A DNA stretch of 64,000 bases from a virus (Duplodnaviria > Heunggongvirae > Uroviricota > Caudoviricetes), in the IMG/VR virus record IMGVR_UViG_3300010885_072628; one strand, written 5' to 3'. The notes under the pieces are model-generated. The model had not been told where the DNA came from, ran no database searches, and saw only the letters and a program-made list of their open reading frames with translations. Both the position numbers and the translations under genes were made by a program. Shown one piece after another: positions 28,690 to 62,197 of this stretch (position 1 is the stretch's first letter; every line of letters starts with the position of its first letter).

Positions 28690-28690
28690 A

Positions 28691-33266: not shown

Positions 33267-34091
33267 ATGATTGAAGTATATTCGGAACTAACAAAAGAAA
33301 AACTGCCCGTGGAATTTATGAACTTTCCAGATAATGAGAGTTTTGTTAAATTTGACTATAACGGGGGACCTTTAAACATTGTTTGGAAATATGAAAATGA
33401 TAGCGAATTAATTAGTTTGGCATTGTTGTATGATGTTATTAGTCAGAATCGTTGTTCGATAGTTAATCTCTTTATTCCTTATTTTCCACACGCACGACAA
33501 GATAGAGAAGAAGTTAAAAGTCAACCTTTCTCTTTAAGAGTTGTATCTGAATTTGTGAACGAGTTCTTAATAGGTGATTTGTGCGTCTGCTTAGATGTTC
33601 ATTCCGATGTTCTGGAGACAACAATGGTCATGGAGTTTGAGAACATCCCAAGTTCAAATTATTCTGACAGCATCGATACAAAGTATGATTATATTATTTG
33701 TCCAGATAAAGGGGCTATGAATAGGTGTGAATCTTGGGGCGAAAAAAGAAATACGCCAGTTCTATATTGCCAAAAAAATCGTGATCCTTCAACGGGCAAA
33801 CTGAGCGATCCTATTATTCCAGATATTGATTTATCTAATAAAAGAGTTTTATTGGTAGATGATATTGGAACAGGGTTTGGTACTCATGTTATGCTGGCAA
33901 ATGTGTTCCATGGAAAGCATCAAAATCTTGTTATGGATTTATGGGTTACTCACGCATCTTTCGTCAGAGGCAAGGAAATGGTATTACGTGTTTTCAATCA
34001 TGTTTATACCACAGATAGCTTGAAGGGTGCCACCCAACAAAACTCTGACAAAATTACAGTTTTTGATTGCACGAAATACTTTTTTAACTAA
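33267..34091 (+). CDS. ribose-phosphate pyrophosphokinase (Prs) homolog. Candidate ADP-ribose pyrophosphokinase (Adps) of a NARP1-type NAD+ reconstitution pathway.
   Basis: IPYFPHARQDR (Prs IPYFGYARQDR), CLDVHSD (DLHA), VLLVDDIGTGFGT (PRPP-binding loop, divergent from DDMIDTGGT), VTHASF. Confidence 0.7.
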   Translation: MIEVYSELTKEKLPVEFMNFPDNESFVKFDYNGGPLNIVWKYENDSELISLALLYDVISQNRCSIVNLFIPYFPHARQDREEVKSQPFSLRVVSEFVNEFLIGDLCVCLDVHSDVLETTMVMEFENIPSSNYSDSIDTKYDYIICPDKGAMNRCESWGEKRNTPVLYCQKNRDPSTGKLSDPIIPDIDLSNKRVLLVDDIGTGFGTHVMLANVFHGKHQNLVMDLWVTHASFVRGKEMVLRVFNHVYTTDSLKGATQQNSDKITVFDCTKYFFN

Positions 34092-34102
34092 GGAATAACA
34101 AA

Positions 34103-35569
34103 ATGGAAGTTCTCCCAATTTTGCTTTCGGACAGCTACAAACAATTTCACTGGATGATGTATCCAAATGGTATTACACGCCTTTATAGCAATTTCACTCC
34201 TCGTAGTTTCAAACACTTAGGATGTGACAAGGCTGTATTTTTTGGTCTACAATACTATATCAAGGAGTATATTCTGGGTCAGTGGCAAAGAAACTTCTTT
34301 GATAAGCCACTAAATGAAGTAGCACAAGAATACCAAAGATTTCATAAACATTTTAGTTTTTATGATATGCCAGTAGAGCATATTACTAAGCTTCACAATC
34401 TTGGTTATCTACCAATAAAAATTAAAGCACTTCCAGAAGGTTGTCTTGTTAATGAAAAGATTCCATTTTTTACAATCACAAACACCCATGATGATTTTGC
34501 ATGGTTAGTTAATTTTCTTGAAACTCAAATTAGCACAAGCATTTGGGACTGTTGTGTTGTTGCTACTATTGCAAGACAATATCGAACTCTATTAAATAAT
34601 CATGCCAATAAGACTTGTGATAATAAAGATTTTGTTCAATGGCAGGGACATGATTTTAGTCAACGAGGAAGAAGTAGTACAGAAAGCACTTTTAATCAAG
34701 CGGGTCATTTGCTAAGTTTTACCGGCACGGATACTATTCCTAGTGTTTTTATGCTAGAGAAATATTATAATGCTGATATTACCAAAGAATTAGTAGGAAG
34801 CAGCGTTCCAGCGAGCGAACACAGTATTCAAACAAGTTATGGTAAAGAAAATGAAATTGATGGATTTATAAGAATTCTGGACAGATTCCCAAGCGGTATT
34901 GTCAGTATTGTTAGTGACAGTTTTGATCTCTGGGAAGTCTGTACAACTTTTGTAACCAAACTTAAAGATAAAATTTTATCTAGAGATGGAAAGCTAGTCA
35001 TTAGGCCAGATAGTGGTAATCCTGTTGACATTGTTTGTGGTGCTATAGAACAAGAATGGCAAAACGAACAAGCAACACTTCCACAAGAAAAAGGTGTTGT
35101 TGAACTTCTTTGGGATGTTTTTGGAGGAACAATTAACGAGAAAGGATATAAAGTTCTTGATCCTCATATTGGAGTAATCTACGGAGATAGTATTTCTCTT
35201 GAAAGAGCAGACGCTATTTGCAAAAGACTAGAGCGAAAAGGATTTGCTAGCAGCAATATTGTGTTTGGTATTGGCAGCTACACCTATAACCACAATACCA
35301 GAGATAGTTTGGGAATTGCTGTTAAAAGTACATACTGTGAGGTTGATGGAGAAAAGAGAAATATTTTTAAAGATCCCGTAACGGATGATGGAGTTAAGAA
35401 GTCTGCACGGGGGTTATTGAAAGTAGTTAAAGAAAATAATGAATATGTTTTGTATGATCAGGTTAGTGATCTCGAAGAAACTCAGGGTGAATTAACAACA
35501 GTTTTTGAAAATGGAAAACTTTTGGTAGATCATAAATTGAGCGATATTAGAGAAAGGTTGTGGAAATAA
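34103..35569 (+). CDS. nadV: nicotinamide phosphoribosyltransferase family protein (NadV/NAMPT; Namat-like)
   Basis: 488 aa, collinear with NAMPT: FFGLQYYIKEY, LPIKIKALPEG, GHDFSQRG, FTGTDT, SVPASEHS, IVSDSFD, IRPDSGNP, IYGDSI, NIFKDPV. Confidence 0.85.
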   Translation: MEVLPILLSDSYKQFHWMMYPNGITRLYSNFTPRSFKHLGCDKAVFFGLQYYIKEYILGQWQRNFFDKPLNEVAQEYQRFHKHFSFYDMPVEHITKLHNLGYLPIKIKALPEGCLVNEKIPFFTITNTHDDFAWLVNFLETQISTSIWDCCVVATIARQYRTLLNNHANKTCDNKDFVQWQGHDFSQRGRSSTESTFNQAGHLLSFTGTDTIPSVFMLEKYYNADITKELVGSSVPASEHSIQTSYGKENEIDGFIRILDRFPSGIVSIVSDSFDLWEVCTTFVTKLKDKILSRDGKLVIRPDSGNPVDIVCGAIEQEWQNEQATLPQEKGVVELLWDVFGGTINEKGYKVLDPHIGVIYGDSISLERADAICKRLERKGFASSNIVFGIGSYTYNHNTRDSLGIAVKSTYCEVDGEKRNIFKDPVTDDGVKKSARGLLKVVKENNEYVLYDQVSDLEETQGELTTVFENGKLLVDHKLSDIRERLWK

Positions 35570-35570
35570 T

Positions 35571-35900
35571 ATGTTTAGTCACCTGTATGAATGGTATCTT
35601 GATTCCCGCTTAATGACTAAATTTAGAATATGCAAGTTTGTTGACGGCAACGGAAAAGAGTGGTATCAAATCCAGCAAAAAGGTTGGATATTTTGGTACA
35701 ACATTTATTCTTATGATTGGTTAGGGGCTACGGGATGGCCACACAAATTAGACAGCGTAGATGAAGCAAAATCTTGTATTGAAAAAATGCAAAAAAAGAT
35801 AAACAGTGATGTTGTAAAAAAAATAGAATGTTTATCTTATTGTTGTAATTGTGGCGAAATCTACTCAAAATTTACCCATATACGATGCAATCATGAATGA
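35571..35900 (+). CDS. hypothetical Cys-containing protein
   Basis: 109-aa ORF. Confidence 0.3.
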   Translation: MFSHLYEWYLDSRLMTKFRICKFVDGNGKEWYQIQQKGWIFWYNIYSYDWLGATGWPHKLDSVDEAKSCIEKMQKKINSDVVKKIECLSYCCNCGEIYSKFTHIRCNHE

Positions 35901-36126
35901 CGATATTTTTGGAAGATCTATTCAAATTGATAAAGATCGCAGAAACAAGATGGAAGAACTCATGGAGGAATACGACCGCACAGTATATTTTCCAGCTTTA
36001 GAGCAATTGAGAAAAGACTGCGAAAAAAAAGGTCATGAAGAAGGGGAATGGAAAAATAATGGCATATCGTACGGTTGGCGTAATTGCACAATATGTGGAG
36101 TCGAACTTGATAGAGAAGAATATTAA
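35893..36126 (+). CDS. hypothetical protein
   Basis: ATGA-coupled start at 35893. Confidence 0.3.
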   Translation: MNDDIFGRSIQIDKDRRNKMEELMEEYDRTVYFPALEQLRKDCEKKGHEEGEWKNNGISYGWRNCTICGVELDREEY

Positions 36127-36323
36127 TGAAAACTACTTATACTCTTGACGAAAACGATGAAAACAACTACAAATACTATGAAGCTAGTATAAAATGCTTG
36201 CATGATAGTTGCTCTAAGTGCAACGGAAGAGGCATTGAAAAGAACACCGGAAAAATTTGTATACACATGATTAGTTGTCCTTGTGTAAAATGTAACCCTC
36301 ATTTCATGAAAAATGAAAAATGA
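36126..36323 (+). CDS. small Cys-rich protein (zinc-ribbon-like)
   Basis: CLHDSCSKCNGRG...CIHMISCPCVKC. Start ATGAAAACTAC. Confidence 0.3.
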   Translation: MKTTYTLDENDENNYKYYEASIKCLHDSCSKCNGRGIEKNTGKICIHMISCPCVKCNPHFMKNEK

Positions 36324-36517
36324 AAAATAAAAATACTGAGAATATGATTCAAAGTGTAATTTTAACTTTTGATGATGGGCAAGAGGCGATATTTGTTGGT
36401 AAGGCTGTTTGTTTTCAAGGGGAAACAAGAAAAATAAGAGATATTGCATTTTCTCCTCCAAGCGATATGCCAGAAGATTGTAGTTGGGGAGATCTTTCCA
36501 ATACTCGGAAAACATAA
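36320..36517 (+). CDS. hypothetical small protein
   Basis: 65-aa ORF. Confidence 0.3.
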   Translation: MKNKNTENMIQSVILTFDDGQEAIFVGKAVCFQGETRKIRDIAFSPPSDMPEDCSWGDLSNTRKT

Positions 36518-36524
36518 AAATAAA

Positions 36525-37016
36525 ATGAAAACTACAAACAAATACGTATTCTTCTGGAATGGAATTTACTCTCAATGGCATAAAGCAAATATGACTATTG
36601 ACGGTATCACTTACAATTCATGCGAACAATATATGATGCACCAAAAAGCCTTAACTTTTGGTGATACGGAAACTGCTAAAATTATCATGGCAGAAACTAA
36701 TCCAAGTGAGCAAAAGAAATACGGCCGTATGATCAGAAACTTTGACAAAAGTGTTTGGGATAAAGTTTGTTTAAGCATTGTAATTAAAGGAAACTACTTT
36801 AAGTTTTCTCAAAATGAAAATCTTAAAACTTCTTTATTACTTACAGGTAATAGAATCTTGGTTGAGGCATCACCACTTGATAACATTTGGGGTATTGGAA
36901 TGGCTGAAGACGACGTTAACATTGAACACCCTATGCGTTGGAAAGGTCTTAATCTTTTAGGCCAAGCAATTACAATCGTTAAACAAGAACTTATACGAGA
37001 AATTACAAATACATAA
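36525..37016 (+). CDS. NADAR (YbiA/DUF1768) domain protein. Candidate reverser of guanine ADP-ribosylation (anti-DarT1-type).
   Basis: VFFWNGIYSQWH...IDGITYNSCEQYMMHQKALTFGD...YGRMIRNF...VWD...LLLTGNRILVEASPLDNIWGIG matches the NADAR signature. Start at ATG 36525 within the 36-bp repeat. Confidence 0.8.
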   Translation: MKTTNKYVFFWNGIYSQWHKANMTIDGITYNSCEQYMMHQKALTFGDTETAKIIMAETNPSEQKKYGRMIRNFDKSVWDKVCLSIVIKGNYFKFSQNENLKTSLLLTGNRILVEASPLDNIWGIGMAEDDVNIEHPMRWKGLNLLGQAITIVKQELIREITNT

Positions 37017-37062
37017 GCACGATGGTAATACTACCATATACTCGGAAAAACATAAAAATAAA

Positions 37063-37251
37063 ATGAAAACTACTTACTCTGAAGTTGTCAGACGCTATGC
37101 GGTTGTTTGTATTCATCCAGATAATCCTAATGATGTACAAGTTATTGAATATTTCAGCGATATTGATGAAGCAAATGTGTTAGTGTCACAATTAAACAGT
37201 AAAAAAATTGCTGATGGAGAGTTTTGTGTAATGCAGTACGACCTAGGATGA
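37063..37251 (+). CDS. hypothetical small protein
   Basis: Starts within the second copy of the 36-bp repeat (MKTTYSE). Confidence 0.3.
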   Translation: MKTTYSEVVRRYAVVCIHPDNPNDVQVIEYFSDIDEANVLVSQLNSKKIADGEFCVMQYDLG

Positions 37252-37294
37252 TTCCAAACACTATGGAACAAACTGTAATTCTGACGAAACTCTT

Positions 37295-37804
37295 TTGAGA
37301 AAGACTGCGAAAATGAAAACAAAAATTACTAAAGAACTTGTAGAATCACTTTCCAGTGATACTATCGCTAAAAAAGAATACGATAAAATTATTAAAAGTA
37401 TTGAAAAGAAAGTCGAAGAAATATGGCTTTTTATTTGCAAAGAAGCTTGGATGGACTGCGAATGGTATGCATTCAGGAATGACCTTGAACTGGGTCATGG
37501 CGATGGATCGACTGGCGGCTGTTTCGATCCAAGAGCAGATAAACAATTTATTGAAATTTTAGGCGAAAAGAAAGACGTAGATTATTGCCCATACAACGAA
37601 GGATTTCCCACCAAGCTGCTCTGGACAGAAAACTGGAAGGAAATAGTTATCAAAGAAATAGAAAAAGCAGAGAAAAAACAAATAATTGAGATAGAAAAAG
37701 CAGAGAAAAAACAAACAACCGATAGTTCTAAAAAAGAAATCATCCAAAAAAAAATTAAATCCAAACTAACAAAGGAAGAATTGAAACACATTCAATTTAA
37801 ATGA
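37295..37804 (+). CDS. hypothetical protein
   Basis: 169-aa ORF. The minus-strand ORFs here were rejected. Confidence 0.35.
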   Translation: MRKTAKMKTKITKELVESLSSDTIAKKEYDKIIKSIEKKVEEIWLFICKEAWMDCEWYAFRNDLELGHGDGSTGGCFDPRADKQFIEILGEKKDVDYCPYNEGFPTKLLWTENWKEIVIKEIEKAEKKQIIEIEKAEKKQTTDSSKKEIIQKKIKSKLTKEELKHIQFK

Positions 37805-38136
37805 AAACTCTATCTACAACATTTGTAAAAAAAATCAAAAAAGTCTTGAAGGACGAAAACATCAATGATATAGAGACCGATGTTCTTGTAGCAAAAGATG
37901 TAAATCACTTCAAGTATCTTTATTTGCATTTCAAGTCTAGGGAATTCTCAGTTCAAGATGACAATGTTTATGTTTCTGCAATTTTGTTGCTAAATAAAAA
38001 CAAAATCAAATATCACATATGTTTAGAAAGTGATGATAAATGCTTGGTGTTTGTTCCTTACAATCAAACAATTGGGTGTTTAGTGGAAGAAGAACCGATT
38101 TGGGTAGATTATCAAGGTGGAAATCATGAAAATTGA
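37801..38136 (+). CDS. hypothetical protein
   Basis: 111-aa ORF. Confidence 0.3.
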   Translation: MKTLSTTFVKKIKKVLKDENINDIETDVLVAKDVNHFKYLYLHFKSREFSVQDDNVYVSAILLLNKNKIKYHICLESDDKCLVFVPYNQTIGCLVEEEPIWVDYQGGNHEN

Positions 38137-38758
38137 ATATGCGGAAAACCCTTTAGCATCTAAAATTTATTTAGATGATAGTGAAAAGAAACTATTGTTC
38201 TGGAAGTATAAATGGGATCTATTAGGCGATGAAATATACGGTTTCTATTACTGGATGAAAGAACCAGAAAAACAAAAAGCCGGATTTAAAGAACACAATA
38301 ACGTTCAAGGCTTAGAAGCTTATGAAAAACTAGAACAAAGTATGCTTTCTGATCCTTTGAATACTGTCTATGAAAAATTAGATAAAATTTCAGAAAATAT
38401 GTCTGACATGCAATATGATGAGTCTGCTATAAAAGACTTCATAGAAGCTTTGCAAGAAAGTCATCATGGAGATTGTATCAGCCAGTGTTGCTCATGTTTA
38501 AAATGTTATGTAGAAGATCAATTGGACATGGATTACGATGTGCCAAATTTTCGTGAACAATCTGGACACACAATTAATGGAGCCTTTTTCAAGCCAGATC
38601 AAACAATCGAACAAGCTATTGATTATCTAAAAAACAAAGATTTTAATACTGCTGAAATTTTGGCATATCAAAAAGAAGTCGTCGATAGATGGAAACAAGA
38701 AAATTCATCAGCTATTGAGTATTTGGAATATTACAAAAAAGAAATTTTAAAAAGGTGA
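38117..38758 (+). CDS. hypothetical protein
   Basis: 213-aa ORF. CISQCCSCLKC cluster. Confidence 0.35.
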   Translation: MEIMKIEYAENPLASKIYLDDSEKKLLFWKYKWDLLGDEIYGFYYWMKEPEKQKAGFKEHNNVQGLEAYEKLEQSMLSDPLNTVYEKLDKISENMSDMQYDESAIKDFIEALQESHHGDCISQCCSCLKCYVEDQLDMDYDVPNFREQSGHTINGAFFKPDQTIEQAIDYLKNKDFNTAEILAYQKEVVDRWKQENSSAIEYLEYYKKEILKR

Positions 38759-38762
38759 ACCT

Positions 38763-39176
38763 ATGTGCCAAATATGCGAATGTGAACCAGAATATTTTGG
38801 AGAAATTCTTGAAGACTGGTTTCTTTATCGAGCCACGAAAGAGAGCAATGAATGTGGTGTTTATCGTATTGAGGTTGGAGAATGGTTCTTAGCCAGACTT
38901 AATAGTGGGCAATCTTATTGTAGCTGGACCGAAGAGAGAGAACGAGAATGCATCAAAGATTTTATTGGCAATGAAACATACGCCGATGATCTTATGTGGT
39001 GCAATCCTCAAGTTGGATACTGGATCACCTCGGCGGCTATAAAAAGGGGATATGATCCCGAAGAAAACAATTTCAACAATTGGTTTTTGGCTCTTTTAAT
39101 CGAACACAGAAAAACTCATCAAACTGCCATAGAAAAGAAAAATCATATACGCCTCAAACTGTTGCATCATGGGTAA
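38763..39176 (+). CDS. hypothetical protein
   Basis: 137-aa ORF. Confidence 0.35.
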   Translation: MCQICECEPEYFGEILEDWFLYRATKESNECGVYRIEVGEWFLARLNSGQSYCSWTEERERECIKDFIGNETYADDLMWCNPQVGYWITSAAIKRGYDPEENNFNNWFLALLIEHRKTHQTAIEKKNHIRLKLLHHG

Positions 39177-39240
39177 AAACCCCATACACAAAACATTACA
39201 CATTCTCAAAAACGGAACTATCAAAAAACAGGATTAGTTT

Positions 39241-39720
39241 ATGTTGATACACACAAAAGGTAATATCATCGATCTAGCAGAGCAAGGTCTTTTTGATGTT
39301 ATAGTTCATGGTTGTAATTGTCAAAACACTATGGGTTCTGGAATTGCCAAGGAAATTAGAGAAAGATACCCACAGGCTTACGAATCAGACACTCAGATAT
39401 CTAAATCTAAAAACGCAAATCAAAAATTAGGCACATACTCTGAGGCGAATGTAGGCAAATTTGTTATCATTAATGCTTATACACAACTAAATTATTTACC
39501 TCGTGGTCAAGACCATTTTGATTATGAAGGCTTTGATAAAATTTTAAACATTTTGCTAAATCAATATGGTAACGCTTCTATTGGTTTTCCTTATATAGGA
39601 ATGGGATTAGCGGGTGGAGATTCAAACAAGATAATTGAATCTCTTGAGTCTTTTGCTAAAAAAGTTTCTAAGGTAGGCGGCAAGGTTACACTAGTAGAAT
39701 TTGACAAAGGAACTCGCTAA
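39241..39720 (+). CDS. macro domain protein, TARG1/DarG-like subfamily. Candidate ADP-ribose removal from DNA or protein.
   Basis: HTKGNIIDL...DVIVHGCNCQNTMGSGIAKEI...PYIGMGLAGGD parallels TARG1 YVKGDLF...HCISEDCRMGAGIA...PRIGCGLD. Confidence 0.6.
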   Translation: MLIHTKGNIIDLAEQGLFDVIVHGCNCQNTMGSGIAKEIRERYPQAYESDTQISKSKNANQKLGTYSEANVGKFVIINAYTQLNYLPRGQDHFDYEGFDKILNILLNQYGNASIGFPYIGMGLAGGDSNKIIESLESFAKKVSKVGGKVTLVEFDKGTR

Positions 39721-45111: not shown

Positions 45112-45624
45112 ATGAACGAACAAAAACTAGTAGAACTAGCAAGAGAAATTGAAGATACCGCAAATTCTTATTATAATGAATCAAATCCAGATGTTCCAAG
45201 AATACTGGATGAGATAGTAATGAGTTCTCGTGCAATGATTGATATGCTGCAAGAAAAACTTCATTTTAGTTTGCGGGACGCTACCGGTAGGCTGACGCAA
45301 AAAGAAGCAGAAGAATTTGAAAAAATTATTTCTACTACGAAACCTTACGAATTTCCTAAAGATTATGTAGCACCAAAAGAAATTTCTTCCAAAGAGTTCC
45401 TTGAACGAATAAAAGAAGAGCTACCAACAATGGGTAACTTCACACCTTATTCTTATTACAACGAATCCATGGATGAAATACAGGTTTATTTTAAAGATGA
45501 AAGCTGTTACACCAAGCCCGTAAATGATAAATTAGAATTATATTTATCATATGATAATGATGTGATTGGAGTGAAGGTTCTTGGGGTTAAAAAATTAATT
45601 CAAGATAAAGGAAAATTCAAATGA
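45112..45624 (+). CDS. hypothetical protein
   Basis: 170-aa ORF. Confidence 0.35.
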   Translation: MNEQKLVELAREIEDTANSYYNESNPDVPRILDEIVMSSRAMIDMLQEKLHFSLRDATGRLTQKEAEEFEKIISTTKPYEFPKDYVAPKEISSKEFLERIKEELPTMGNFTPYSYYNESMDEIQVYFKDESCYTKPVNDKLELYLSYDNDVIGVKVLGVKKLIQDKGKFK

Positions 45625-46013
45625 CAACGCTCGTAAATTTCACAAAAAAGTATATTACACAAAAAATTAGTTCAATTAGTTTAGATCATTTTGATGGACA
45701 AAGTTTCGAGAGTATTATTTCTCAACTAAATGAAAAATCTAAGAAGGCAGAGTCTGAATTCCCTTCGATGAAGCCACCGACAATGAAACATATTTATTTA
45801 GAGAAAATATATGATAGGCATAATGAAACTTATTATTTCGATGTAATGATTGAAAGACTAGAAAACGATAAAGAGTATGATAATAGAATTAAAGAAGAAA
45901 AAAAAGAACAAGAAAGAAAAGCAAAAATGGCGGCTAGACAAGAAACAAAAAAAGAAAAGTTTGAAGAAAAAGAGTACCGAAGACTAAAAAAGAAATACGA
46001 GAAAAAAGCATGA
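45621..46013 (+). CDS. cassette-family protein (type A N-domain) with a conserved K/E-rich C-terminal tail ...RLKKKYEKKA
   Basis: ERLENDKEYDNRIKEEKK...EYRRLKKKYEKKA. 3' junction ctaaaaaagaaatacgagaaaaaagcATGA. Confidence 0.4.
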   Translation: MTTLVNFTKKYITQKISSISLDHFDGQSFESIISQLNEKSKKAESEFPSMKPPTMKHIYLEKIYDRHNETYYFDVMIERLENDKEYDNRIKEEKKEQERKAKMAARQETKKEKFEEKEYRRLKKKYEKKA

Positions 46014-46425
46014 TATGCAACAAATGCAATAAGGGAGAAATTCAAACATCAACAGCAGGTGATATTGATTTTTTTGGTTGCAACAAATGCGATAATGGCT
46101 GGATCGTGGAAAATGGAAAGAAATATATTAGACAAGGGCTTGATGCTTTTTCTTTTAATGAGTCATCTGATTTAGGCACATTTACTTTAGATGATGCAAT
46201 TAATTATCTGGAAAAAATAAAATCTCTTCACCCAGAAGCGAATCAATTTTATTTAAGAGTAGAAAAAAATCATTATGACGATCTGAATTGTTTTGTTGTA
46301 GAGATGGAAAGGTTAGAAACAGACAAAGAGTACAGTAAGAGAATCAAATTGGAAGAAAAAAACAAGAAGCTATTGAAAGAAAAGAACTCGCAAGATTGAA
46401 AAAGAAATACGAGAAAAAATCATGA
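46010..46425 (+). CDS. cassette-family protein (zinc-ribbon N-domain, type A tail). Needs a -1 frameshift at A_AAA_AAC (46357-46363) to reach the conserved tail. Zero-frame product ends at 46399.
   Basis: Frame 0: ...ETDKEYSKRIKLEEKNKKLLKEKNSQD*. Frame -1 continues ...KKQEAIERKELARLKKKYEKKS*, ending in the same ATGA junction (46422-46425) as its paralogs. Confidence 0.4.
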
Positions 46426-46652
46426 CAAATAAAGAGTTTGATTTATATACCTCCCATATTTGGAATACACATTTTTTTTATGAAGAATTTGATTATCCTT
46501 GCTATTCGGGATTAAATGATAAGTTCCAAGGTTCTTCTGAAGCATGTGATGCTATGCAAAGAATCTGGGGCGTTACATATAAAACCAAAGAACAGTTTCA
46601 GAATGCTTACAAAACTCAACTTAAAATATTAGGAGAAGATATAAATTCATGA
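46422..46652 (+). CDS. hypothetical protein
   Basis: 76-aa ORF. Confidence 0.3.
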   Translation: MTNKEFDLYTSHIWNTHFFYEEFDYPCYSGLNDKFQGSSEACDAMQRIWGVTYKTKEQFQNAYKTQLKILGEDINS

Positions 46653-46846
46653 AAGACTTATTCAAAACAAAATATCGCTTAGTTGAAAGAAAATATCCTC
46701 TTGGATATGTTGAATATTTTATTCAATACAAATTTTGCTGTATCTTGTGGCTTGATATTAGCTGCTATGGTAACTTATCCGCAGCACAAGGTTCATTCAA
46801 AAATTTAACAAATCCAACCGTTGAAACAATATTGGAAACAACATGA
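46649..46846 (+). CDS. hypothetical small protein
   Basis: 65-aa ORF. Confidence 0.25.
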   Translation: MKDLFKTKYRLVERKYPLGYVEYFIQYKFCCILWLDISCYGNLSAAQGSFKNLTNPTVETILETT

Positions 46847-47376
46847 AACAAATCAAGTATAACAATTATGAATTTAGAGCTAAAGTTAGTGGGAAATATA
46901 TAGTTCCCGGTGGAAAAGGAGGGCACTACTATAGGCATTATTACAAAGAAAAAGATATCCCGAACATCATCAAAGAAATAGAAGCTGAATATCCGAGATA
47001 TAAAGGAAAAATAAAACCTTTTCGTCTTCTTATTGAAGAAGTTCAACTTCCTAGCAATATAATTAAAAAATCACTAAAAGCTATTAAAGCAATAGAGAGG
47101 GAAATAGCTCATTACGGAATACGCAAAGATATTGCGGAAGCTATGAGAGAATTGGGGAGCCAAGGATTTGAGTTTTGTGGTCATGGCTACGGATTAAGTG
47201 GTGGCTACGAAGACTTTAGTTTGTTTAACAAGCATGTGCATGTAAACTTTTGTGATAAACACAAAAAGTGCGAGGTAACGATAAGCGATGATAATGAATT
47301 AGTATTTAATGGCACTATTGTTAAGGCAATGAATTACTTGTCCAAGAACAAATTAACAAGAAAACAAAAGGTTTAA
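46843..47376 (+). CDS. hypothetical protein
   Basis: 177-aa ORF. Confidence 0.35.
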   Translation: MKQIKYNNYEFRAKVSGKYIVPGGKGGHYYRHYYKEKDIPNIIKEIEAEYPRYKGKIKPFRLLIEEVQLPSNIIKKSLKAIKAIEREIAHYGIRKDIAEAMRELGSQGFEFCGHGYGLSGGYEDFSLFNKHVHVNFCDKHKKCEVTISDDNELVFNGTIVKAMNYLSKNKLTRKQKV

Positions 47377-47377
47377 A

Positions 47378-47860
47378 ATGATAATCAAGCCCCCACAAAA
47401 CATAGCCCTCAGAGACAGCGAATATTCAATTTTTTTGGCTGGTTCAATCGAAATGGGTTCAGCAATTGATTGGCAAAAAGATCTTGGAGAACATCTATCC
47501 GGCAAAGGCTATACAGTGTACAATCCAAGACGAGATGATTGGGATAGCACTTGGGAGCAAAAATTTGAAAGCCCTCAATTTTACCAACAAGTGAATTGGG
47601 AATTAAACGCTCTGGATCAAGCGAATTACATCGTGATGTATTTTGATCCTAAAACTAAAAGCCCAATAAGTCTTTTGGAATTAGGACTTTATGCAAATAC
47701 TAACAAATTATATGTGATTTGTCCCGAAGGCTTTTGGCGAAAAGGAAATGTGGATATTGTTTGCAACAAATATGATATCCCACTTTTCCCCGACATTGAA
47801 GAATTCAAGAACAAATGGGAAAACTTTGCCATTAAAAAGAGAATGTGGGGAACAAGATGA
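47378..47860 (+). CDS. nucleoside 2-deoxyribosyltransferase-like protein
   Basis: SIFLAGSIEMG...W (N-terminal Rossmann-like motif). SPISLLELGLYANTNKLYVICPEG with the conserved Glu, as in NDT/DNPH1 enzymes. Confidence 0.5.
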   Translation: MIIKPPQNIALRDSEYSIFLAGSIEMGSAIDWQKDLGEHLSGKGYTVYNPRRDDWDSTWEQKFESPQFYQQVNWELNALDQANYIVMYFDPKTKSPISLLELGLYANTNKLYVICPEGFWRKGNVDIVCNKYDIPLFPDIEEFKNKWENFAIKKRMWGTR

Positions 47861-48039
47861 AAGTTAAAAGCTTTAAAGTTTTAAGCCTCAACGAAACATT
47901 GTCTAGAGAAGAATTAGACAAACTGTGGAAGGAAGAATTGTGGGTTGCAAACAGACCAAGAACATGGTATGAATGGTTCTGCTGGACTTTTGACGGTAAA
48001 TATAATATTTTTAATTGCAGCGGAGAAAATCATGGCTAA
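47845..48039 (+). CDS. hypothetical small protein
   Basis: 64-aa ORF. Confidence 0.25.
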   Translation: MGNKMKVKSFKVLSLNETLSREELDKLWKEELWVANRPRTWYEWFCWTFDGKYNIFNCSGENHG

Positions 48040-48391
48040 AAAAGCAAAAGCAAAAGAGACGAAACTTCCCAAAAATAGACAATACATAATTTTGAAACAT
48101 GATGGCTACGGTGTTTTAGAACCTTTTACTTCTCTAGGCATTTCTGGAGCTTGTATTTATGATGGAAAGGACATCACATCTATAGAGGACGCCATTTGTG
48201 GGGCGTATGAGGAAATCGGCGGAGAAATTGAAGAACTTGAAGAATGGGATGGATCCGACATCGTAATTTTATCTGTGGAAAACGAACTCGAATATATCAA
48301 GTCTACTATTAAAAAATATCATTCAGATGTCGAGACAAAAGAAAAAAGAGAGTTGGCACGACTAAAAAAGAAATATGAAGGTAAATCATGA
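48032..48391 (+). CDS. cassette-family protein (type B N-domain, MAKKAKAKETKLPK...) with the ELARLKKKYEGKS tail
   Basis: ATG at 48032 after GGAG. Tandem paralog of 48388..48753. Confidence 0.4.
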   Translation: MAKKAKAKETKLPKNRQYIILKHDGYGVLEPFTSLGISGACIYDGKDITSIEDAICGAYEEIGGEIEELEEWDGSDIVILSVENELEYIKSTIKKYHSDVETKEKRELARLKKKYEGKS

Positions 48392-48753
48392 ATAAAAAAG
48401 CAAAAGCAAAAGAGACGAAACTTCCTAAAGATGGAAGATACATAGTCCTAAGAGATGACGGGGGTGGTTTGAGCCTTTTCGATTATTCGTCAGGGGCAAT
48501 TTACATCTATGATGGAACGGAAGAATTAGAGGACGCAATTTGTGGTGCTTACGAGGAAATCTATGGGGAAATGAGTGAAGAATTTGATGATGACGATATA
48601 TACAGCGAGAATTACCTAGATCAAATCTGCATTTTTTCTTTGGAAGATAAACCCGAATACATCAAGTCTACTCTTAAAAAATATCATTCAGATATCGAGA
48701 CAAAAGAAAAAACAGAGTTGGCACGACTAAAAAAGAAATATGAGAAAAATTAA
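48388..48753 (+). CDS. cassette-family protein (type B). Tandem duplicate of 48032..48391.
   Basis: MNKKAKAKETKLPKDGRY...ICGAYEEIYGE...YIKSTLKKYHSDIETKEKTELARLKKKYEKN. Confidence 0.4.
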   Translation: MNKKAKAKETKLPKDGRYIVLRDDGGGLSLFDYSSGAIYIYDGTEELEDAICGAYEEIYGEMSEEFDDDDIYSENYLDQICIFSLEDKPEYIKSTLKKYHSDIETKEKTELARLKKKYEKN

Positions 48754-49123
48754 AATGAATGAAGATGCCGATTATCGCTCAGTCGCTTTCGCTTGGCTCG
48801 GCGGCGGACTTGGAATTTTATTCTGGTTTACCTGCGTTTTCATCTTGCCAACGCTCATTGTCTTGGGCATCATCTTCACTCTTGGTCTTGGCGACAAGCA
48901 AAAAAATAAACCAGAAGCTATTTACACATACAGAGACAGCATAACTTTCATGGATAAAGATACTGACGAAAGAGTCATTCAGTTAAAGAATGTAGAGTTT
49001 AGAGTTTTAGGCAAAGGCTCTTTCATGTATCAAGTCCAAGATGGAGAAAAAGAAGTTTTGGTTTGTGATGAAATTCCGCTCAATACATATCCAATGATTC
49101 GAAAAATAGAAATAAATGAGTAG
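48740..49123 (+). CDS. membrane protein
   Basis: Two TM helices (GGGLGILFWFTCVFILPTLIVLGIIFTLGL). Confidence 0.35.
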   Translation: MRKIKMNEDADYRSVAFAWLGGGLGILFWFTCVFILPTLIVLGIIFTLGLGDKQKNKPEAIYTYRDSITFMDKDTDERVIQLKNVEFRVLGKGSFMYQVQDGEKEVLVCDEIPLNTYPMIRKIEINE

Positions 49124-49185
49124 ATTCAGAGCTTCATGTTCCAAGAGTAGAAGATATTGTTTTAAATGCTGCTAGGATTATTAGT

Positions 49186-49578
49186 ATGACAAAGAAATAT
49201 ATCACAGAGAATATTAGAACTATTGATTTAGATGATATGATTCACACCGACATAGATTCCTTTATTACTATGTTTGCTGAAATCAAGAAAGAGTATCCCA
49301 ATGATAAGATAGCTGTTTCTTTCAACAAACATGAAAAGCTGGATTATAATGATTACGATACTTGCTATGTTTGTGAATGTACCCACACCCTTGACTTTAC
49401 TCTTAATAGGATAGAAACCGATAAAGAATATGACAATAGAATAAATAGATATAAGAACCAAAAAAAGGCAAGACAAAAAGCTAAAGAAGAAAAAATAGAG
49501 AAAAAGAGACTAGAAAAAGAAGCTAATGATAAAAAAGAATATCTTAGATTAAAAAAAATATATGAGGGAAAACCATGA
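49186..49578 (+). CDS. cassette-family protein (type A) with the EYLRLKKIYEGKP tail
   Basis: NRIETDKEYDNRINRYKNQKK... Confidence 0.4.
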   Translation: MTKKYITENIRTIDLDDMIHTDIDSFITMFAEIKKEYPNDKIAVSFNKHEKLDYNDYDTCYVCECTHTLDFTLNRIETDKEYDNRINRYKNQKKARQKAKEEKIEKKRLEKEANDKKEYLRLKKIYEGKP

Positions 49579-59001: not shown

Positions 59002-59391
59002 ATGATGGATGATTGCCTAAAGGTCTCGGACCCATTAGGAATTTTGTGTAGATCAAAAAGAGGTTATGGCCAAGAGCCATGGTACGAAACTATAAGGATT
59101 TTGAATCAAATGACGCCAACAGAAGCGTATTATTACTTCATGGTCGAGATAACTGATCCTCTGACTCAGTGGGCAAGAATTAGTGATAAAAAAGCTACAG
59201 AGATTGAGGACATCATAATGACTGATTCGTATGAGATCTGGAGATATGCCAGAGATTTTAAAAAGGGTAGACTACCAGACAAGATGCACAATATGATGTT
59301 GTTACATGCTATAGAGAATCCAGATAGATCATGTGTAAGAAACTATTTTAATTTGATCAATGATAAAAACAAAATAACGCCACACGGCTGA
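59002..59391 (+). CDS. GRWPEAE-family small protein (one repeat plus an RLPDKMHNMM C-terminal module)
   Basis: QMTPTEAYYYF...IEDIIMTDSYEIWRYARDFKKGRLPDKMHNMMLLHAIENPDRSCVRNYF. Confidence 0.45.
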   Translation: MMDDCLKVSDPLGILCRSKRGYGQEPWYETIRILNQMTPTEAYYYFMVEITDPLTQWARISDKKATEIEDIIMTDSYEIWRYARDFKKGRLPDKMHNMMLLHAIENPDRSCVRNYFNLINDKNKITPHG

Positions 59392-59558
59392 GTCTCCTGC
59401 GAAAAGCGCTGGGAGGAGAGTATTTAATGACACCACAAAAAATGTTAGATGTTCCAGCATGTAGAGCATTTCACGAAACGTGCAGATATGCCAGAAGTTA
59501 CTGGTCTGGTTTTAAACTTTTTTAACTATATGTAAAAAAATTATTTTGAGTTTATCAA

Positions 59559-60014
59559 ATGACACTAACATGCACATGCGAGATTTGTAAGCGTCTCGAA
59601 GAGATCTTGCCGGCGAGTTTTCTCTCCCGACTTTCACGTACTCGTACAATTAACCACGAGGATGAAGCTAATCGAGTACACGATACACGTGTGACGCTTG
59701 TATTGGACTCCTTCAATACAGCATTAGCTGATGGTTTTTCAATTGGTAAAAGATCACCAGAACTTGAAGACATTATTGCGACTATTCCGTGTACTGCTAC
59801 CGAGTATGCTATAAAAATAATTAATGGCAGATGGGAGAAAGCAGAAGATGTCATTATGACTGATTCAGCCAACAGCAACTCTTACTCCAGATATGCCATT
59901 AAAGACAAACTACCGGACAAGATGCACAAGATGATGTTGTTACATGCAATCAAAAATCCAAAAGATGACCATGTAATAGATTATTTTCAGAGATGCTATA
60001 CGAAATCCAAATGA
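59559..60014 (+). CDS. GRWPEAE-family small protein
   Basis: RSPELEDIIATIP...AIKIINGRWEKAEDVIMTDS...IKDKLPDKMHKMMLLHAIKNPKDDHVIDYF. Confidence 0.45.
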   Translation: MTLTCTCEICKRLEEILPASFLSRLSRTRTINHEDEANRVHDTRVTLVLDSFNTALADGFSIGKRSPELEDIIATIPCTATEYAIKIINGRWEKAEDVIMTDSANSNSYSRYAIKDKLPDKMHKMMLLHAIKNPKDDHVIDYFQRCYTKSK

Positions 60015-60047
60015 TGATTATGTAAAAGACTATTTCGAGTTTATCAA

Positions 60048-60347
60048 ATGACACCAGAAGAAGCATACTTAAAAGCTTGGCGTGCTGGTAAAAGATTGCC
60101 AGAACTTGAAAGTATTGTGCTAACCAGTCCAGAGAATTCCTGCTGTTATGCTATCGGCATTATCAAAAGCAGATGGGTTGAAGCCGAAGATCTCATAATA
60201 ACTGATTCGAATTTATCTCTAGTCTACGCTAGATACGCAATCAAAGACAAACTCCCAGAAAAGATGCACAATATGATGATACTATACGCTATACGAAATC
60301 CAAATGATGATTGTGTAAAAGACTATTTCGAGTGGGTGAATACATGA
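60048..60347 (+). CDS. GRWPEAE-family small protein
   Basis: MTPEEAY...RLPELESIVLTSP...IIKSRWVEAEDLIITDS...KLPEKMHNMMILYAIRNPNDDCVKDYF. Confidence 0.45.
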   Translation: MTPEEAYLKAWRAGKRLPELESIVLTSPENSCCYAIGIIKSRWVEAEDLIITDSNLSLVYARYAIKDKLPEKMHNMMILYAIRNPNDDCVKDYFEWVNT

Positions 60348-60538
60348 TGATTGGTGAAGTTAAAAAGTGGGCAAAAGCAAAGGGTTACGAGGTTAAGAAT
60401 TCCAATGGTGGTTATTCTTGGCGAAAAGACTCAGAAGCTGAAACGAAGTGGTCTTGTGATGTCGATAATTTGGTAAAAGACATATTCAACCACGCTACAG
60501 ACAACAAGTGGTTAGAGTATCAGAAAAAAAATCAATGA
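60311..60538 (+). CDS. hypothetical small protein
   Basis: 75-aa ORF between family members. Confidence 0.3.
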   Translation: MCKRLFRVGEYMMIGEVKKWAKAKGYEVKNSNGGYSWRKDSEAETKWSCDVDNLVKDIFNHATDNKWLEYQKKNQ

Positions 60539-60891
60539 CACCAATACAAGCATACGAAACAGCAAAATTACTAGGAGAACGATTGCCAGAACTTGAAAGT
60601 TGTATACTGACAAGTTCTCATTATAGTTATTTCTATGCCCTAGATATAATTAAAGGTAGATGGCCTGAAGCAGAAGATGTTATAATGGAAAGTCAAAAAA
60701 TGTCTCTGCTTTATGCGGTATTCTTAATCAAAGGTAGACTGCCAGAGAAAATGCACAACATGATGATTTTATATGTTGTGCAAGACAGTAAAGACTGGGC
60801 GGCGGAATACTTTAGATTCCTAGAAGGCACTTCGCATCGCCGGCCGCATTCTGCGATTCCTTGCCAGCCTGCGTGGGTACTACTTCCATAA
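60535..60891 (+). CDS. GRWPEAE-family small protein
   Basis: MTPIQAY...RLPELESCILTSS...IIKGRWPEAEDVIMESQ...GRLPEKMHNMMILYVV. ATG at 60535. Confidence 0.45.
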   Translation: MTPIQAYETAKLLGERLPELESCILTSSHYSYFYALDIIKGRWPEAEDVIMESQKMSLLYAVFLIKGRLPEKMHNMMILYVVQDSKDWAAEYFRFLEGTSHRRPHSAIPCQPAWVLLP

Positions 60892-61161: not shown

Positions 61162-62049
61162 ATGATATTAGATAAACTTAATAAAAAGAATCTGATAACG
61201 GCTCCTAATTTTGTTGTGTCAAACACACACTATATGGTGCTAATGGGAAGCGTTGCCTATGGAGTAAGCACAGATACAAGCGACCAAGACATCTATGGCT
61301 TTTGTATTCCCTCTAAAGACATTGTTTTTCCACATCTTACTGGAGAAATACAAGGATTTGGTAAACAAAAATCAAGATTTGAGCAATGGCAACAAGCTCA
61401 TATAAAAGATGGAATAGAAGAATATGATTTTACGATTTATTCTATAGTGAAATACTTTAATTTGTGCATGGAAAACAACCCTAATATGGTTGATTCTCTT
61501 TTTGTGCCGCAAAATTATATTTTACATTCAACATATGTTGGAAATCTTGTAAGAGAAAATAGAAAGAAATTCTTGCATAAAGGTATGTGGCACAAATTTA
61601 AGGGCTACGCCTACAGTATGTTGAAAAAAGCAAAAGAAAAAAATCCTGATTCTGGAACTAAACGAAGAGAGTTGGTAGAAAAGTATGGATTTGATACAAA
61701 GTATTGCTACCATTTAGTTAGGCTTTTGTCTCAAGCTGAACAGATGTTGGTCGAAGGAGATTTAGATTTGCAAGAGGTTGGTAGAAGAGAACACATGAAG
61801 GCTATTCGAAGAGGTGATGTGTCGCTAGAAGATATCGAGAGATGGGCGGCAGACAAAGAAAAAGATTTAGAGAAATTGTATCATTCTTCATCTTTACCGT
61901 GGGGTCCAGACGAGGAATATATCAAACAACTACTAATAAATTGCTTAGAACACCACTATGGTTCTATAGATAATTGTGTGACAATACAGAACAAAGAAGA
62001 ATTAGCCCTGAAAGAAATTAAAGATATTATAGGTAAATATAAAATATGA
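61162..62049 (+). CDS. predicted nucleotidyltransferase (RlaP/pfam10127-like)
   Basis: VLMGSVAYGVSTDTSDQDIYGF (GS.AYG..T..SD.D) nucleotidyltransferase signature. Confidence 0.5.
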   Translation: MILDKLNKKNLITAPNFVVSNTHYMVLMGSVAYGVSTDTSDQDIYGFCIPSKDIVFPHLTGEIQGFGKQKSRFEQWQQAHIKDGIEEYDFTIYSIVKYFNLCMENNPNMVDSLFVPQNYILHSTYVGNLVRENRKKFLHKGMWHKFKGYAYSMLKKAKEKNPDSGTKRRELVEKYGFDTKYCYHLVRLLSQAEQMLVEGDLDLQEVGRREHMKAIRRGDVSLEDIERWAADKEKDLEKLYHSSSLPWGPDEEYIKQLLINCLEHHYGSIDNCVTIQNKEELALKEIKDIIGKYKI

Positions 62050-62197
62050 ATACTAAAAAAGACATAAAATCTATTTCGAATCCGTTAGAACATATTCTCG
62101 AAGTAGCAGACAGCTACTTTAAAGATAAGTTTCTAATTCTAAATGCTAGAGACGAGTTAAAAAGATTGAAGCTCATGCTGAAGAATTGCAAAGAAAA

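What the first reader, a model, noticed from the sequence alone, without database searches (positions are those of the whole stretch)
45621..49578. Cassette gene family: two unrelated N-domain types share a nucleotide-conserved K/E-rich 3' tail and ATGA junction
Five genes (45621, 46010, 48032, 48388, 49186) end with (E)LxRLKK(K/I)YE(K/G)K(S/A/N/P). Each is followed by an ATGA-overlapping next start. The 3' approximately 35 nt are conserved at the DNA level: cTAAAAAAGAAATAyGAGrAAAA..ATGA. N-domains are of two kinds: ETDKEYDNRI type with or without a zinc ribbon, and MAKKAKAKETKLPK type. 48032 and 48388 are a fresh tandem duplicate, identical over the first 40 nt. The conserved junction could be a recombination linker for shuffling gene cassettes (as in T4 hyperplastic regions), a shared translation-initiation region, or a common C-terminal targeting peptide.
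Basis: seen in the sequence. Interest (0 to 1): 0.6.

Follow-up and report, generated by a model that had tools for sequence, protein, structure and literature searches.

The report
Phage gene family with shared tail
Five neighbouring small phage genes share a C-terminal tail because they belong to one very large, unnamed phage protein family, and related phages show that this repeated tail-coding DNA also acts as a crossover point where whole genes are swapped, lost or gained.

Summary
Five same-strand genes end in E[YL]xRLKK[KI]YE. An 18-nt tail motif occurs 5 times against 0.18 expected. However, the tail of gene 46010 lies in the -1 frame, gene 48388 has no ATGA junction, and 48032/48388 are old paralogues (59% aa identity).

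The tail is not a portable linker. It is the C-terminal signature of a large uncharacterised family of ~110-aa phage proteins (1,514 cluster representatives at E<=1e-10; closest to phrog_25568; no Pfam or NCBIfam name). In this family the tail ends one long K/E-rich helix. It sits 36 (+4, +7/8, +11) residues after a second signature, RLETDKEY.

Codon identity in the tails is about what codon usage predicts (48/84 against 42.8). The out-of-frame tail has decayed in one relative. ATGA junctions occur at 24% of genes in the window.

The cassette idea is still partly right. One relative carries a hybrid B-type/P5-type tail. There, a gene about 97% identical to P4 sits among flanking genes about 71% identical. 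Other relatives show gene-precise gain or loss and an N-domain swap.

I read the recombination as a by-product of protein-motif conservation. The protein's function is unknown. It probably acts as a docking or oligomerisation motif on a rigid helical stalk.

The parts
45621..46013 (+). P1, an A-type family member (130 aa). It has RLENDKEY, a 40-residue spacing and the tail EYRRLKKKYEKKA*. An ATGA overlap joins it to P2.
   Evidence: profile E 7.9e-30; 36% identical to P5
46010..46399 (+). P2, an A-type member with an N-terminal CxxC...CxxC zinc-ribbon-like segment. The frame-0 ORF (129 aa) stops before the tail.
   Evidence: weak Zn_ribbon_TFIIB/DUF5817 hits; E 9.2e-19, profile positions 4-92 only
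46356..46363 (+). A7 run followed by C (the heptamer A_AAA_AAC, 46357-46363, is in frame 0). From here the tail frame (-1) is open.
   Evidence: read from the sequence; no downstream RNA structure; the relative L051 has A10 here
46384..46425 (+). P2 tail relic ELARLKKKYEKKS* in the -1 frame. Its ATGA overlaps the start of gene 46422.
   Evidence: decayed in L115
48032..48391 (+). P3, a B-type member (119 aa). It has an invariant N-terminal MAKKAKAKETKLPK, then ..ENELEYIKSTIKKY.., and the tail ELARLKKKYEGKS*. An ATGA overlap joins it to P4.
48388..48753 (+). P4, a B-type member (121 aa) with the tail ELARLKKKYEKN* and a TAA stop. There is no ATGA junction.
   Evidence: a copy about 97% identical lies in a different context in L113
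49186..49578 (+). P5, an A-type member (130 aa). It has RIETDKEY, a 44-residue spacing and the tail EYLRLKKIYEGKP*. An ATGA overlap joins it to gene 49575.
   Evidence: (AF2 pLDDT 91: three strands, one helix, then one continuous helix over residues 79-127)
45944..46013 (+). Tail-coding direct repeat, copy 1 of 5. The other copies are 46356-46425, 48322-48391, 48687-48756 and 49509-49578.
   Evidence: family D1, 60-77% identity
48027..48105 (+). Conserved 5' arm of the B-type genes (AAATCATG plus the K-rich N-terminus). The second copy is at 48383-48461 (82% identity).
   Evidence: D3

Best explanation
The five genes are a lineage-specific expansion, in a roughly 330-kb freshwater jumbo phage lineage, of one large unnamed family of ~110-aa phage proteins.

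Architecture. Family members have a small, fast-evolving N-terminal alpha/beta domain, a near-invariant R-L-E-T-D-K-E-Y-x-x-R at the last strand/helix junction, one long K/E-rich alpha-helix, and (K)E[YL]xRLKK[KI][FY][EG] within 1-4 residues of the C-terminus. The 'tail' is that last motif. It is kept by selection on the protein. It lies a fixed number of helical turns from the first motif (36 residues, or 36 + 4, 7/8 or 11), so both face the same side of a straight helix about 54-66 A apart.

DNA conservation. The nucleotide conservation follows from amino-acid conservation plus AT-rich, low-degeneracy codons. The ATGA is this genome's ordinary translational coupling.

Recombination. The same 20-30 nt therefore recur in direct orientation at several gene 3' ends, flush with the next start codon. 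The phage's homologous recombination uses them as crossover points. Whole gene bodies are deleted, inserted or replaced while a functional tail and the coupled downstream start are kept.

Shown versus inferred. Shown: family membership, motif spacing, lack of excess codon identity, the hybrid tail and single-gene transfer in relatives, and decay of the out-of-frame tail. Inferred: (i) recombination is a by-product and not the reason the sequence exists; (ii) the tail is a docking or oligomerisation element at the end of a rigid stalk. It may clasp the partner's N-domain in an antiparallel dimer, or bind a common acidic partner or RNA, with the variable N-domain giving specificity.
For: Family:
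- A profile of the A-type genes finds 202 proteins.
- Exhaustively, the profile finds 7,842 cluster representatives at E<=1e-3 and 1,514 at E<=1e-10. The 150 best listed are 80-132 aa and almost all match nearly full-length.
- Residues R75, E77, D79, E81, Y82, R85, Y119, R121, L122, K123 and K125 are invariant or nearly so.
- 34 of 60 members hit phrog_25568.

Geometry:
- AF2 gives pLDDT 91 with one continuous helix over residues 79-127.
- The Y-to-F spacing is 36 in 166 of 232 members, 40 in 36, 43/44 in 16 and 47 in 4. The motif lies within 4 residues of the C-terminus in 174 of 232.
- The per-position profile shows invariant E25, E28, R31, L32, K33-35 and F36.

B-type: the C-module is homologous to the family (hhalign probability 90%, E 1.6e-6).

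Protein-level, not DNA-level, conservation:
- Identical residues share a codon in 48 of 84 comparisons against 42.8 expected.
- There are 5 synonymous changes among 14 identical-residue codons in the tail region of the 45%-GC relative L046.
- The P2 tail relic has mutated in L115 (1-nt deletion plus TAG).

Generic ATGA: 25 of 103 genes.

Recombination at tails:
- L113 has a hybrid tail (B-type 5' half, P5-type 3' half) running into the g49575 start.
- The L113 B gene is 93.4% identical to P4 (about 97% without a 9-nt indel). Its flanking genes are about 71% identical and the upstream 100 nt are 50% identical.
- In L001 a P1 tail remnant is fused directly to the gene that follows P2 in the window.
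- P0023 and P0002 are 36% identical in the N-domain and 96% in the C-module.
- Copy number varies from 1 to 5 among close relatives.
Against: - P3/P4 and the P5 orthologues show few synonymous differences in their last ~28-30 codons. This could mean DNA-level constraint or gene conversion, and not only protein selection. The K/E codons involved have low degeneracy, so the test is weak.
- Only two or three independent recombination events were mapped. No test was run for breakpoint enrichment against other positions.
- Other deletions in the same region do not use tails: the NDT truncation in L048, the 300-nt duplication in L002 and the internal P1 deletion in L001.
- P2 (spacing 26) and the B-type genes (27) fall outside the family's main spacing classes.
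Confidence: 0.7

Rival explanations
1. The tail-plus-ATGA sequence is a DNA element maintained by selection as a recombination linker for shuffling gene cassettes. It would be a coding-sequence analogue of the PeSL elements of T4-type hyperplastic regions.
For: - Hybrid tail and single-gene transfer in L113.
- Gene-precise P2 gain or loss.
- B-type genes have conserved 5' and 3' arms around a diverged middle (91% / 61% / 88%), with few synonymous changes in the arms.
- The same downstream gene g49575 is preceded by three different gene bodies.
Against: - Codon identity is about as expected.
- The tail is family-wide and usually single-copy per locus in other phages.
- Synonymous divergence is seen in L046.
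- The P2 tail decays once it no longer codes.
- There is no promoter or stem-loop signature.
Confidence: 0.12
2. The conserved 3' end mainly serves as a shared translation-initiation region (Shine-Dalgarno-like GAG(G)/GAAGG in the YE(G/K) codons plus the ATGA) for translational coupling of the next gene.
For: - Four of five tails end in ATGA, against 24% of genes in the window.
- A purine-rich GAGG/GAAGG lies 8-10 nt before the ATG.
- Tail remnants persist upstream of gene 46422 homologues after loss of the coding body (L001; L115).
- E/G follows the F in most family members.
Against: - ATGA coupling occurs at many unrelated genes.
- P4 lacks it.
- The conserved block spans at least 14 codons, far beyond a ribosome-binding site.
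- In the family the residues after F vary (EK, EG, GD, G...).
- In L048 the junction is TAATG.
Confidence: 0.08
3. B-type genes are not diverged family members. They are fusions in which an unrelated N-terminal body acquired the family's C-terminal module by recombination at the module boundary. On this reading the tail module is genuinely portable between unrelated proteins.
For: - Homology is detectable only over the last strand, the helix and the tail.
- The family profile does not significantly match the B-type N-terminal parts.
- The predicted order of secondary-structure elements differs: strand-strand-helix-strand-helix in B against strand-helix-strand-strand-helix in A.
- The P0023/P0002 mosaic shows that such swaps happen.
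Against: - The B-type model is unreliable (pLDDT 50).
- N-domains are poorly conserved even within the A family (26% mean column identity), so divergence beyond recognition is plausible.
- B-type spacing (27) differs from the family classes.
Confidence: 0.35
4. P2 uses programmed -1 ribosomal frameshifting, or transcriptional slippage, at the A-run to make both tail-less and tail-bearing isoforms.
For: - The heptamer A_AAA_AAC is in frame, as in the IS1 frameshift site (from my own knowledge).
- The same frame relation is seen in three independent assemblies, despite an A7/A10 difference and a 24-nt indel.
Against: - There is no downstream structure (-3.5 kcal/mol, z 0.35).
- In L115 the -1-frame tail carries a further 1-nt deletion and a TAG stop, as expected for an unselected relic.
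Confidence: 0.03

Closest known systems
PHROG family phrog_25568 (with weaker hits to phrog_25224 and phrog_14651), phage proteins of unknown function
   Same: - The A-type genes and their wider family hit these profiles. P2 scores E 7.7e-5 and P5 scores 0.008. 34 of 60 family members hit, with a best E of 2.5e-10.
- The matches run to the profiles' C-terminal ends.
   Different: - No function, name or structure is attached.
- The family has no Pfam or NCBIfam model, no PDB relative and no literature hit for its motifs.
- B-type genes do not hit it.
PeSL-mediated modular shuffling in hyperplastic regions of T4-type phages (Arbiol et al. 2010, PMC2839356; PMC4122927)
   Same: - Small accessory ORFs are gained, lost and replaced by homologous recombination between short conserved sequences at gene boundaries.
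- This leaves chimeric boundary elements and keeps downstream expression intact (compared).
   Different: - PeSLs are intergenic ~100-bp elements made of a sigma-70 promoter and a stem-loop terminator.
- Here the repeated homology is the coding sequence of a conserved C-terminal protein motif in translationally coupled genes.
- There is no promoter or terminator enrichment and no stable structure.
Single alpha-helix (ER/K-type) spacer domains
   Same: - AF2 predicts a long continuous helix.
- The last 50 residues are 34-54% Lys+Glu, against a window median of 16%.
- The helix middle is poorly conserved, and length changes come in whole helical turns.
   Different: - Stability as a monomer is untested.
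- A weak Ala/hydrophobic seam could instead indicate an antiparallel coiled coil.
- Both ends of the helix carry near-invariant motifs.
Klebsiella jumbo phage vB_KleM_RaK2 protein H6X4W6 (uncharacterised)
   Same: It is the best structural match in BFVD (Foldseek E 1.7e-4, TM 0.57/0.62, 96 aligned columns).
   Different: Sequence identity is 20% and no function is known. Sequence-level relatedness was not tested.

Membership tests
ETDKEY...RLKKKF phage protein family (phrog_25568-like) | Significant full-length profile match | tested here: met
   P1 scores E 7.9e-30, P5 1.6e-28 and P2 9.2e-19 (positions 4-92) against the family profile. These are inflated: P1, P5 and P5's close relatives were in the seed alignment, and P2 helped recruit it. 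The independent support is the weak phrog_25568 hits. The B-type genes P3 and P4 do not match (E 0.017 and 1.7). Only hhalign links their C-module to the family (probability 90%).
ETDKEY...RLKKKF phage protein family (phrog_25568-like) | R-x-E-[TN]-D-x-E-Y-x-x-R motif at the last strand/helix junction | tested here: met
   P1 has RLENDKEYDNR, P2 has RLETDKEYSKR and P5 has RIETDKEYDNR. The B-type genes have only S[LV]E[DN]xxEYIKS.
ETDKEY...RLKKKF phage protein family (phrog_25568-like) | Spacing of 36 + n*3.6 residues between the Tyr of ETDKEY and the Phe/Tyr of RLKKKF | tested here: inconclusive
   P1 has a spacing of 40 and P5 of 44, both in the family classes. Frame-corrected P2 has 26 and the B-type genes 27, both outside the main classes (counted).
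ETDKEY...RLKKKF phage protein family (phrog_25568-like) | Tail motif within about 4 residues of the C-terminus | tested here: met
   2-4 residues follow the Tyr in all five genes. In the family this holds for 174 of 232 members.
PeSL regulatory cassettes of T4-type phages | Intergenic location with a sigma-70-like early promoter | tested here: not met
   The tails are coding and overlap the next start codon. Promoter-like sites number 26 against 24.1 expected.
PeSL regulatory cassettes of T4-type phages | Stable stem-loop or terminator | tested here: not met
   The fold energy is -3.5 kcal/mol with z 0.35. Terminator-like sites number 6 against 4.7 expected, and none lies at a tail.
PeSL regulatory cassettes of T4-type phages | Chimeric element left at recombination junctions between flanking copies | tested here: met
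   L113 carries a hybrid B-type/P5-type tail.
PeSL regulatory cassettes of T4-type phages | Excised mini-circles during infection | not testable with these tools
   This needs inverse PCR or long reads from infected cells.
Programmed -1 ribosomal frameshift site | In-frame slippery heptamer X_XXY_YYZ | tested here: met
   A_AAA_AAC lies at 46357-46363 in frame 0.
Programmed -1 ribosomal frameshift site | Downstream stimulatory structure, and conservation of the shifted-frame ORF in relatives | tested here: not met
   There is no structure. The shifted-frame tail is broken in L115.
Single alpha-helix (ER/K) domain | Long, charged helix that is stable as a monomer | tested here: inconclusive
   The composition and the AF2 helix fit. 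Monomeric stability and oligomeric state cannot be tested here.

The most novel reading that the evidence does not exclude
The ETDKEY/RLKKKF proteins may be a modular adaptor system. A constant rigid stalk ends in a basic/aromatic docking motif that binds one common target, either the partner subunit or an RNA or host factor. The N-terminal domain is fast-evolving and exchangeable. New combinations would be generated by recombination within the conserved C-module coding sequence, so the family would diversify much as polymorphic toxin or receptor-binding cassettes do. Its recurrent placement beside Rnl1-type RNA ligase, AAA_33 kinase and phosphatase genes, and here inside an island with NAD-salvage, NADAR, Macro and RlaP genes, would tie it to RNA repair or counter-defence.
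Probability: 0.2. Interest if true: 0.65.

Novelty: new variant of a known kind. Interest (0 to 1): 0.42.

Why it matters
- It gives a sequence-level definition and a confident fold model for a very abundant phage protein family with no name, no Pfam model and no structure. The definition is two motifs separated by a fixed number of helical turns. The family has at least 1,500 clusters at 50% identity.
- It documents, from natural populations, gene-precise cassette exchange in a jumbo-phage accessory region. The crossover site is the coding sequence of a conserved protein motif, not an intergenic regulatory element as in T4-type PeSLs.
- It shows how protein-motif conservation alone can create in-frame recombination sites that preserve expression.
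- It points to a testable link between this family and phage RNA-repair or counter-defence islands.

Tried and rejected
- BLAST against cultured phages. blastn of the region and tblastn of P5, P0125, P0058 and P0027 found nothing. The low-complexity filter probably masks the K/E helix.
- GTDB genome scan. 107 pattern matches were found, but none was confirmed against P5.
- Related loci via the neighbouring NDT-like gene. Forty-one IMG/VR loci were retrieved, but none carries a tail gene. The expansion is therefore confined to the closest relatives.
- B-type structure. pLDDT was 50 and the model is unusable for fold comparison.
- Domain hints from longer family members gave nothing.
- Literature searches for the motifs and for the PHROG identifier gave 0 papers.
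- Programmed frameshift in P2 was considered and rejected.
- PeSL-like promoter or stem-loop was considered and rejected.
- The 'fresh duplicate' reading of P3/P4 was rejected.
- A dimer model could not be run because fused or multimer inputs are not accepted.

Full report
**What is in the window.** The window is AT-rich (35.6% GC). It looks like part of a large phage genome:
- Tail-fibre-like, clamp-loader-like and sigma-like proteins and NAMPT.
- PRPP-synthetase N-domain, NADAR and Macro domains.
- RlaP and a metallophosphatase.
- An NDT-like gene.

The region has no nucleotide match among 50,697 cultured phage records.

Five + strand genes carry the reported tail:

| Gene | Coordinates | Tail |
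|---|---|---|
| P1 | 45621-46013 | EYRRLKKKYEKKA* |
| P2 | 46010- | ELARLKKKYEKKS* (-1 frame) |
| P3 | 48032-48391 | ELARLKKKYEGKS* |
| P4 | 48388-48753 | ELARLKKKYEKN* |
| P5 | 49186-49578 | EYLRLKKIYEGKP* |

- The peptide pattern occurs nowhere else in six frames.
- An 18-nt degenerate DNA pattern matches 5 times against 0.18 expected.
- The repeat finder recovers the five tails as one 70-nt repeat family.
- A profile scan of all window ORFs finds only these three A-type and two B-type genes.

**Corrections to the observation.**
- P2's own reading frame stops at 46399. Its tail lies in the -1 frame downstream of an A7 run.
- P4 ends in TAA, not in an ATGA overlap.
- ATGA overlaps occur at 25 of 103 + strand genes, so they are a general habit of this genome.
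- P3 and P4 are 59% identical in protein and 72% in DNA. Their ends are conserved (91% and 88%) and the middle has diverged (61%). They are old paralogues.

**What the tail is.**
- P5 alone has only 13 close homologues and P4 only 6. All of them keep the tail.
- A profile of P1, P2, P5 and their relatives finds 202 proteins.
- An exhaustive HMMER search of 1.84 billion cluster representatives finds 7,842 hits at E<=1e-3 and 1,514 at E<=1e-10. The 150 best listed are 80-132 aa and almost all match nearly full-length.
- The alignment shows a variable N-terminal part, then near-invariant R-L-E-T-D-K-E-Y-x-x-R, a K/E-rich stretch, and (K)EY(E/L)RLKKK(F/Y)(E/G) at the C-terminus.
- The family has no Pfam or NCBIfam model and no PDB relative by sequence. 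There are no literature hits. It corresponds best to phrog_25568, of unknown function (34 of 60 members).
- Outside this lineage it is usually single-copy per locus and sits among small early-type genes.

**Structure and geometry.**
- AlphaFold2 on the 60-sequence alignment gives a confident model of P5 (pLDDT 91). It has strand 5-14, helix 23-36, strands 41-52 and 63-76, then one continuous helix 79-127 to the end.
- In 232 family members the distance from the Tyr of ETDKEY to the Phe/Tyr of the tail is 36 residues in 166, 40 in 36, 43/44 in 16 and 47 in 4. That is 36 plus whole helical turns. The motif lies within 4 residues of the C-terminus in 174.
- The helix middle is variable and charged. 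E25, E28, Y29, R31, L32, K33-35 and F36 are nearly invariant.
- The tail is therefore one end of a two-motif, fixed-phase helical unit, not a detachable tag.
- The hydrophobic pattern is mirrored (Y0, +4 against F0, -4, -7), and acidic ETDKE faces basic RLKKK. From this I infer an antiparallel dimer clasp, or docking to a common partner. This could not be modelled here.

**A-type and B-type.** hhalign links the B-type alignment to the family over the last strand, the E..EY motif and the tail (probability 90%, E 1.6e-6). The family profile does not match the B-type N-terminal parts. The B-type model is too poor to compare folds (pLDDT 50). So the C-terminal module is homologous. Whether the B-type N-domain diverged or was fused on remains open.

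**Is the DNA conserved beyond the protein?**
- Across inter-type tail pairs, identical residues use the same codon in 48 of 84 cases, against 42.8 expected from the window's codon usage.
- A 45%-GC relative keeps ELARLKKKYE, with 5 synonymous changes among 14 identical-residue codons in the tail region.
- In relative L115 the out-of-frame P2 tail has a further 1-nt deletion and a TAG stop.
- These results argue against selection on the DNA itself and against a programmed frameshift. There is also no RNA structure after the A-run.
- One caveat remains. P3/P4 and the P5 orthologues show few synonymous differences in their last ~28-30 codons. This is compatible with gene conversion or recent exchange.

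**Recombination at the tails.** Close relatives vary in content:
- L001 has two tail genes plus a P1 remnant. The remnant's tail is joined directly to the start of the gene that follows P2 in the window.
- L002 has an exact 300-nt in-frame duplication inside the B gene.
- L048-L050 have one B gene abutting P5 through TAATG.
- L044 has P5 alone.
- L113 is the most telling. It has a B-type gene 93.4% identical to P4, about 97% apart from a 9-nt indel. Its flanking genes are only about 71% identical to the window's, and the 100 nt upstream are unrelated.
- The L113 tail is a hybrid. The 5' half is B-type. The 3' half is P5-type and runs into the start of the g49575 homologue.
- The same downstream gene is therefore preceded by a P5 body (window, L001, L044, L048), by a B-type body (L113), or, judging from a gene table, by a third N-domain (P0023).
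- P0023 and P0002 are 36% identical in the N-domain and 96% in the C-module.
- Cassette exchange with crossovers in the tail-coding sequence is therefore real.
- It resembles PeSL-mediated shuffling in T4-type phages (PMC2839356). However, the homology here is coding, and there is no promoter or stem-loop signature.
- Other deletions nearby do not use tails. Enrichment at tails has not been tested statistically.

**Context as a functional lead.** In 61 loci from IMG/VR and other sources, recurrent neighbours within 5 kb are:

| Neighbour | Loci |
|---|---|
| Rnl1-type RNA ligase | 10 |
| AAA_33 kinases | 13 |
| Metallophosphatase-like protein | 11 |
| DSP phosphatase | 5 |
| RF-1-domain protein | 5 |

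Twelve of 44 distinct family members have a ligase or kinase nearby. This is suggestive only.

**Verdict.**
- The tail is a protein motif of a very large uncharacterised phage family that has expanded here.
- The junction features are generic.
- The recombination-linker reading is right as a phenomenon, but is best seen as a by-product.
- I rate it a new variant of a known kind, of moderate interest.

Noticed in passing
window 46352-46425; L051 740-840; L115 2640-2810: P2 needs a -1 shift at an A-run (A7 in the window, A10 in L051) to reach its tail. Three independent assemblies share this state. In L115 the tail relic has a further deletion and a TAG stop, so P2 is most likely a naturally truncated, tail-less family member.
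   Followed up: yes
L002 8799-9455 (compare L001 9099-9455): A strain variant from the same sampling campaign carries an exact 300-nt in-frame tandem duplication inside the B-type gene. It gives a 218-aa two-body protein with a single tail. This looks like duplication caught in progress.
   Followed up: partly
L001 7397-7482: This is a pseudogene remnant of P1. The start codon and 8 codons are fused, out of frame, to the last ~60 nt of the gene. The tail/ATGA piece is kept immediately upstream of the next gene.
   Followed up: partly
L048 1068-1367: The NDT-like gene is truncated and fused to the following small gene in relatives that are otherwise 98-100% identical. This shows frequent deletions in the region that are not tail-mediated.
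   Followed up: no
window 33267-39720, 47378-47860 and 61162-63757: The tail genes sit in an accessory island. It holds a PRPP-synthetase N-domain protein, NAMPT, a NADAR domain, a Macro domain, an NDT-like gene, an RlaP RNA-repair nucleotidyltransferase and a metallophosphatase. This gene set suggests NAD salvage, reversal of ADP-ribosylation and RNA repair.
   Followed up: partly
L053, L055-L058, L070, L084, L087, L098, L106 (family gene +/- 5 kb): In about a quarter of distinct family members the gene lies within 5 kb of Rnl1-type RNA ligase or AAA_33 kinase genes, often with metallophosphatase-like genes too. In L053, L055 and L056 it lies 3 nt downstream of the ligase.
   Followed up: partly
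window 48032-48073 and 48388-48429; all B-type homologues: B-type proteins share an invariant Lys-rich N-terminus, M(A/N/T)KK(A/S)K(A/V)KETKLPK. AF2 leaves it disordered. Its role is unknown, and its coding DNA forms the conserved 5' arm of the cassette.
   Followed up: no
window 28099-30714 and 59002-60891: A second paralogous family with internal repeats links genes 28099, 28691 and 29482 to 59002, 59559, 60048 and 60508 (blastp E down to 1e-33).
   Followed up: no
P0062, P0099, P0101, P0115 (family members of 153-162 aa): Some family members carry a ~45-aa C-terminal extension after the tail (..HEHAWVNFGGVYHLGNPEQWQECATCKEKRKL) with Cys/His residues. It has no Pfam match.
   Followed up: partly
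L046 (534 nt, 45% GC) and the 7.3-kb contig carrying P0017: A B-type gene with an intact tail occurs in a much more GC-rich phage, in a different gene context (after a g48740-like gene, near HD-domain and acetyltransferase genes). This is consistent with lateral spread of the cassette.
   Followed up: partly
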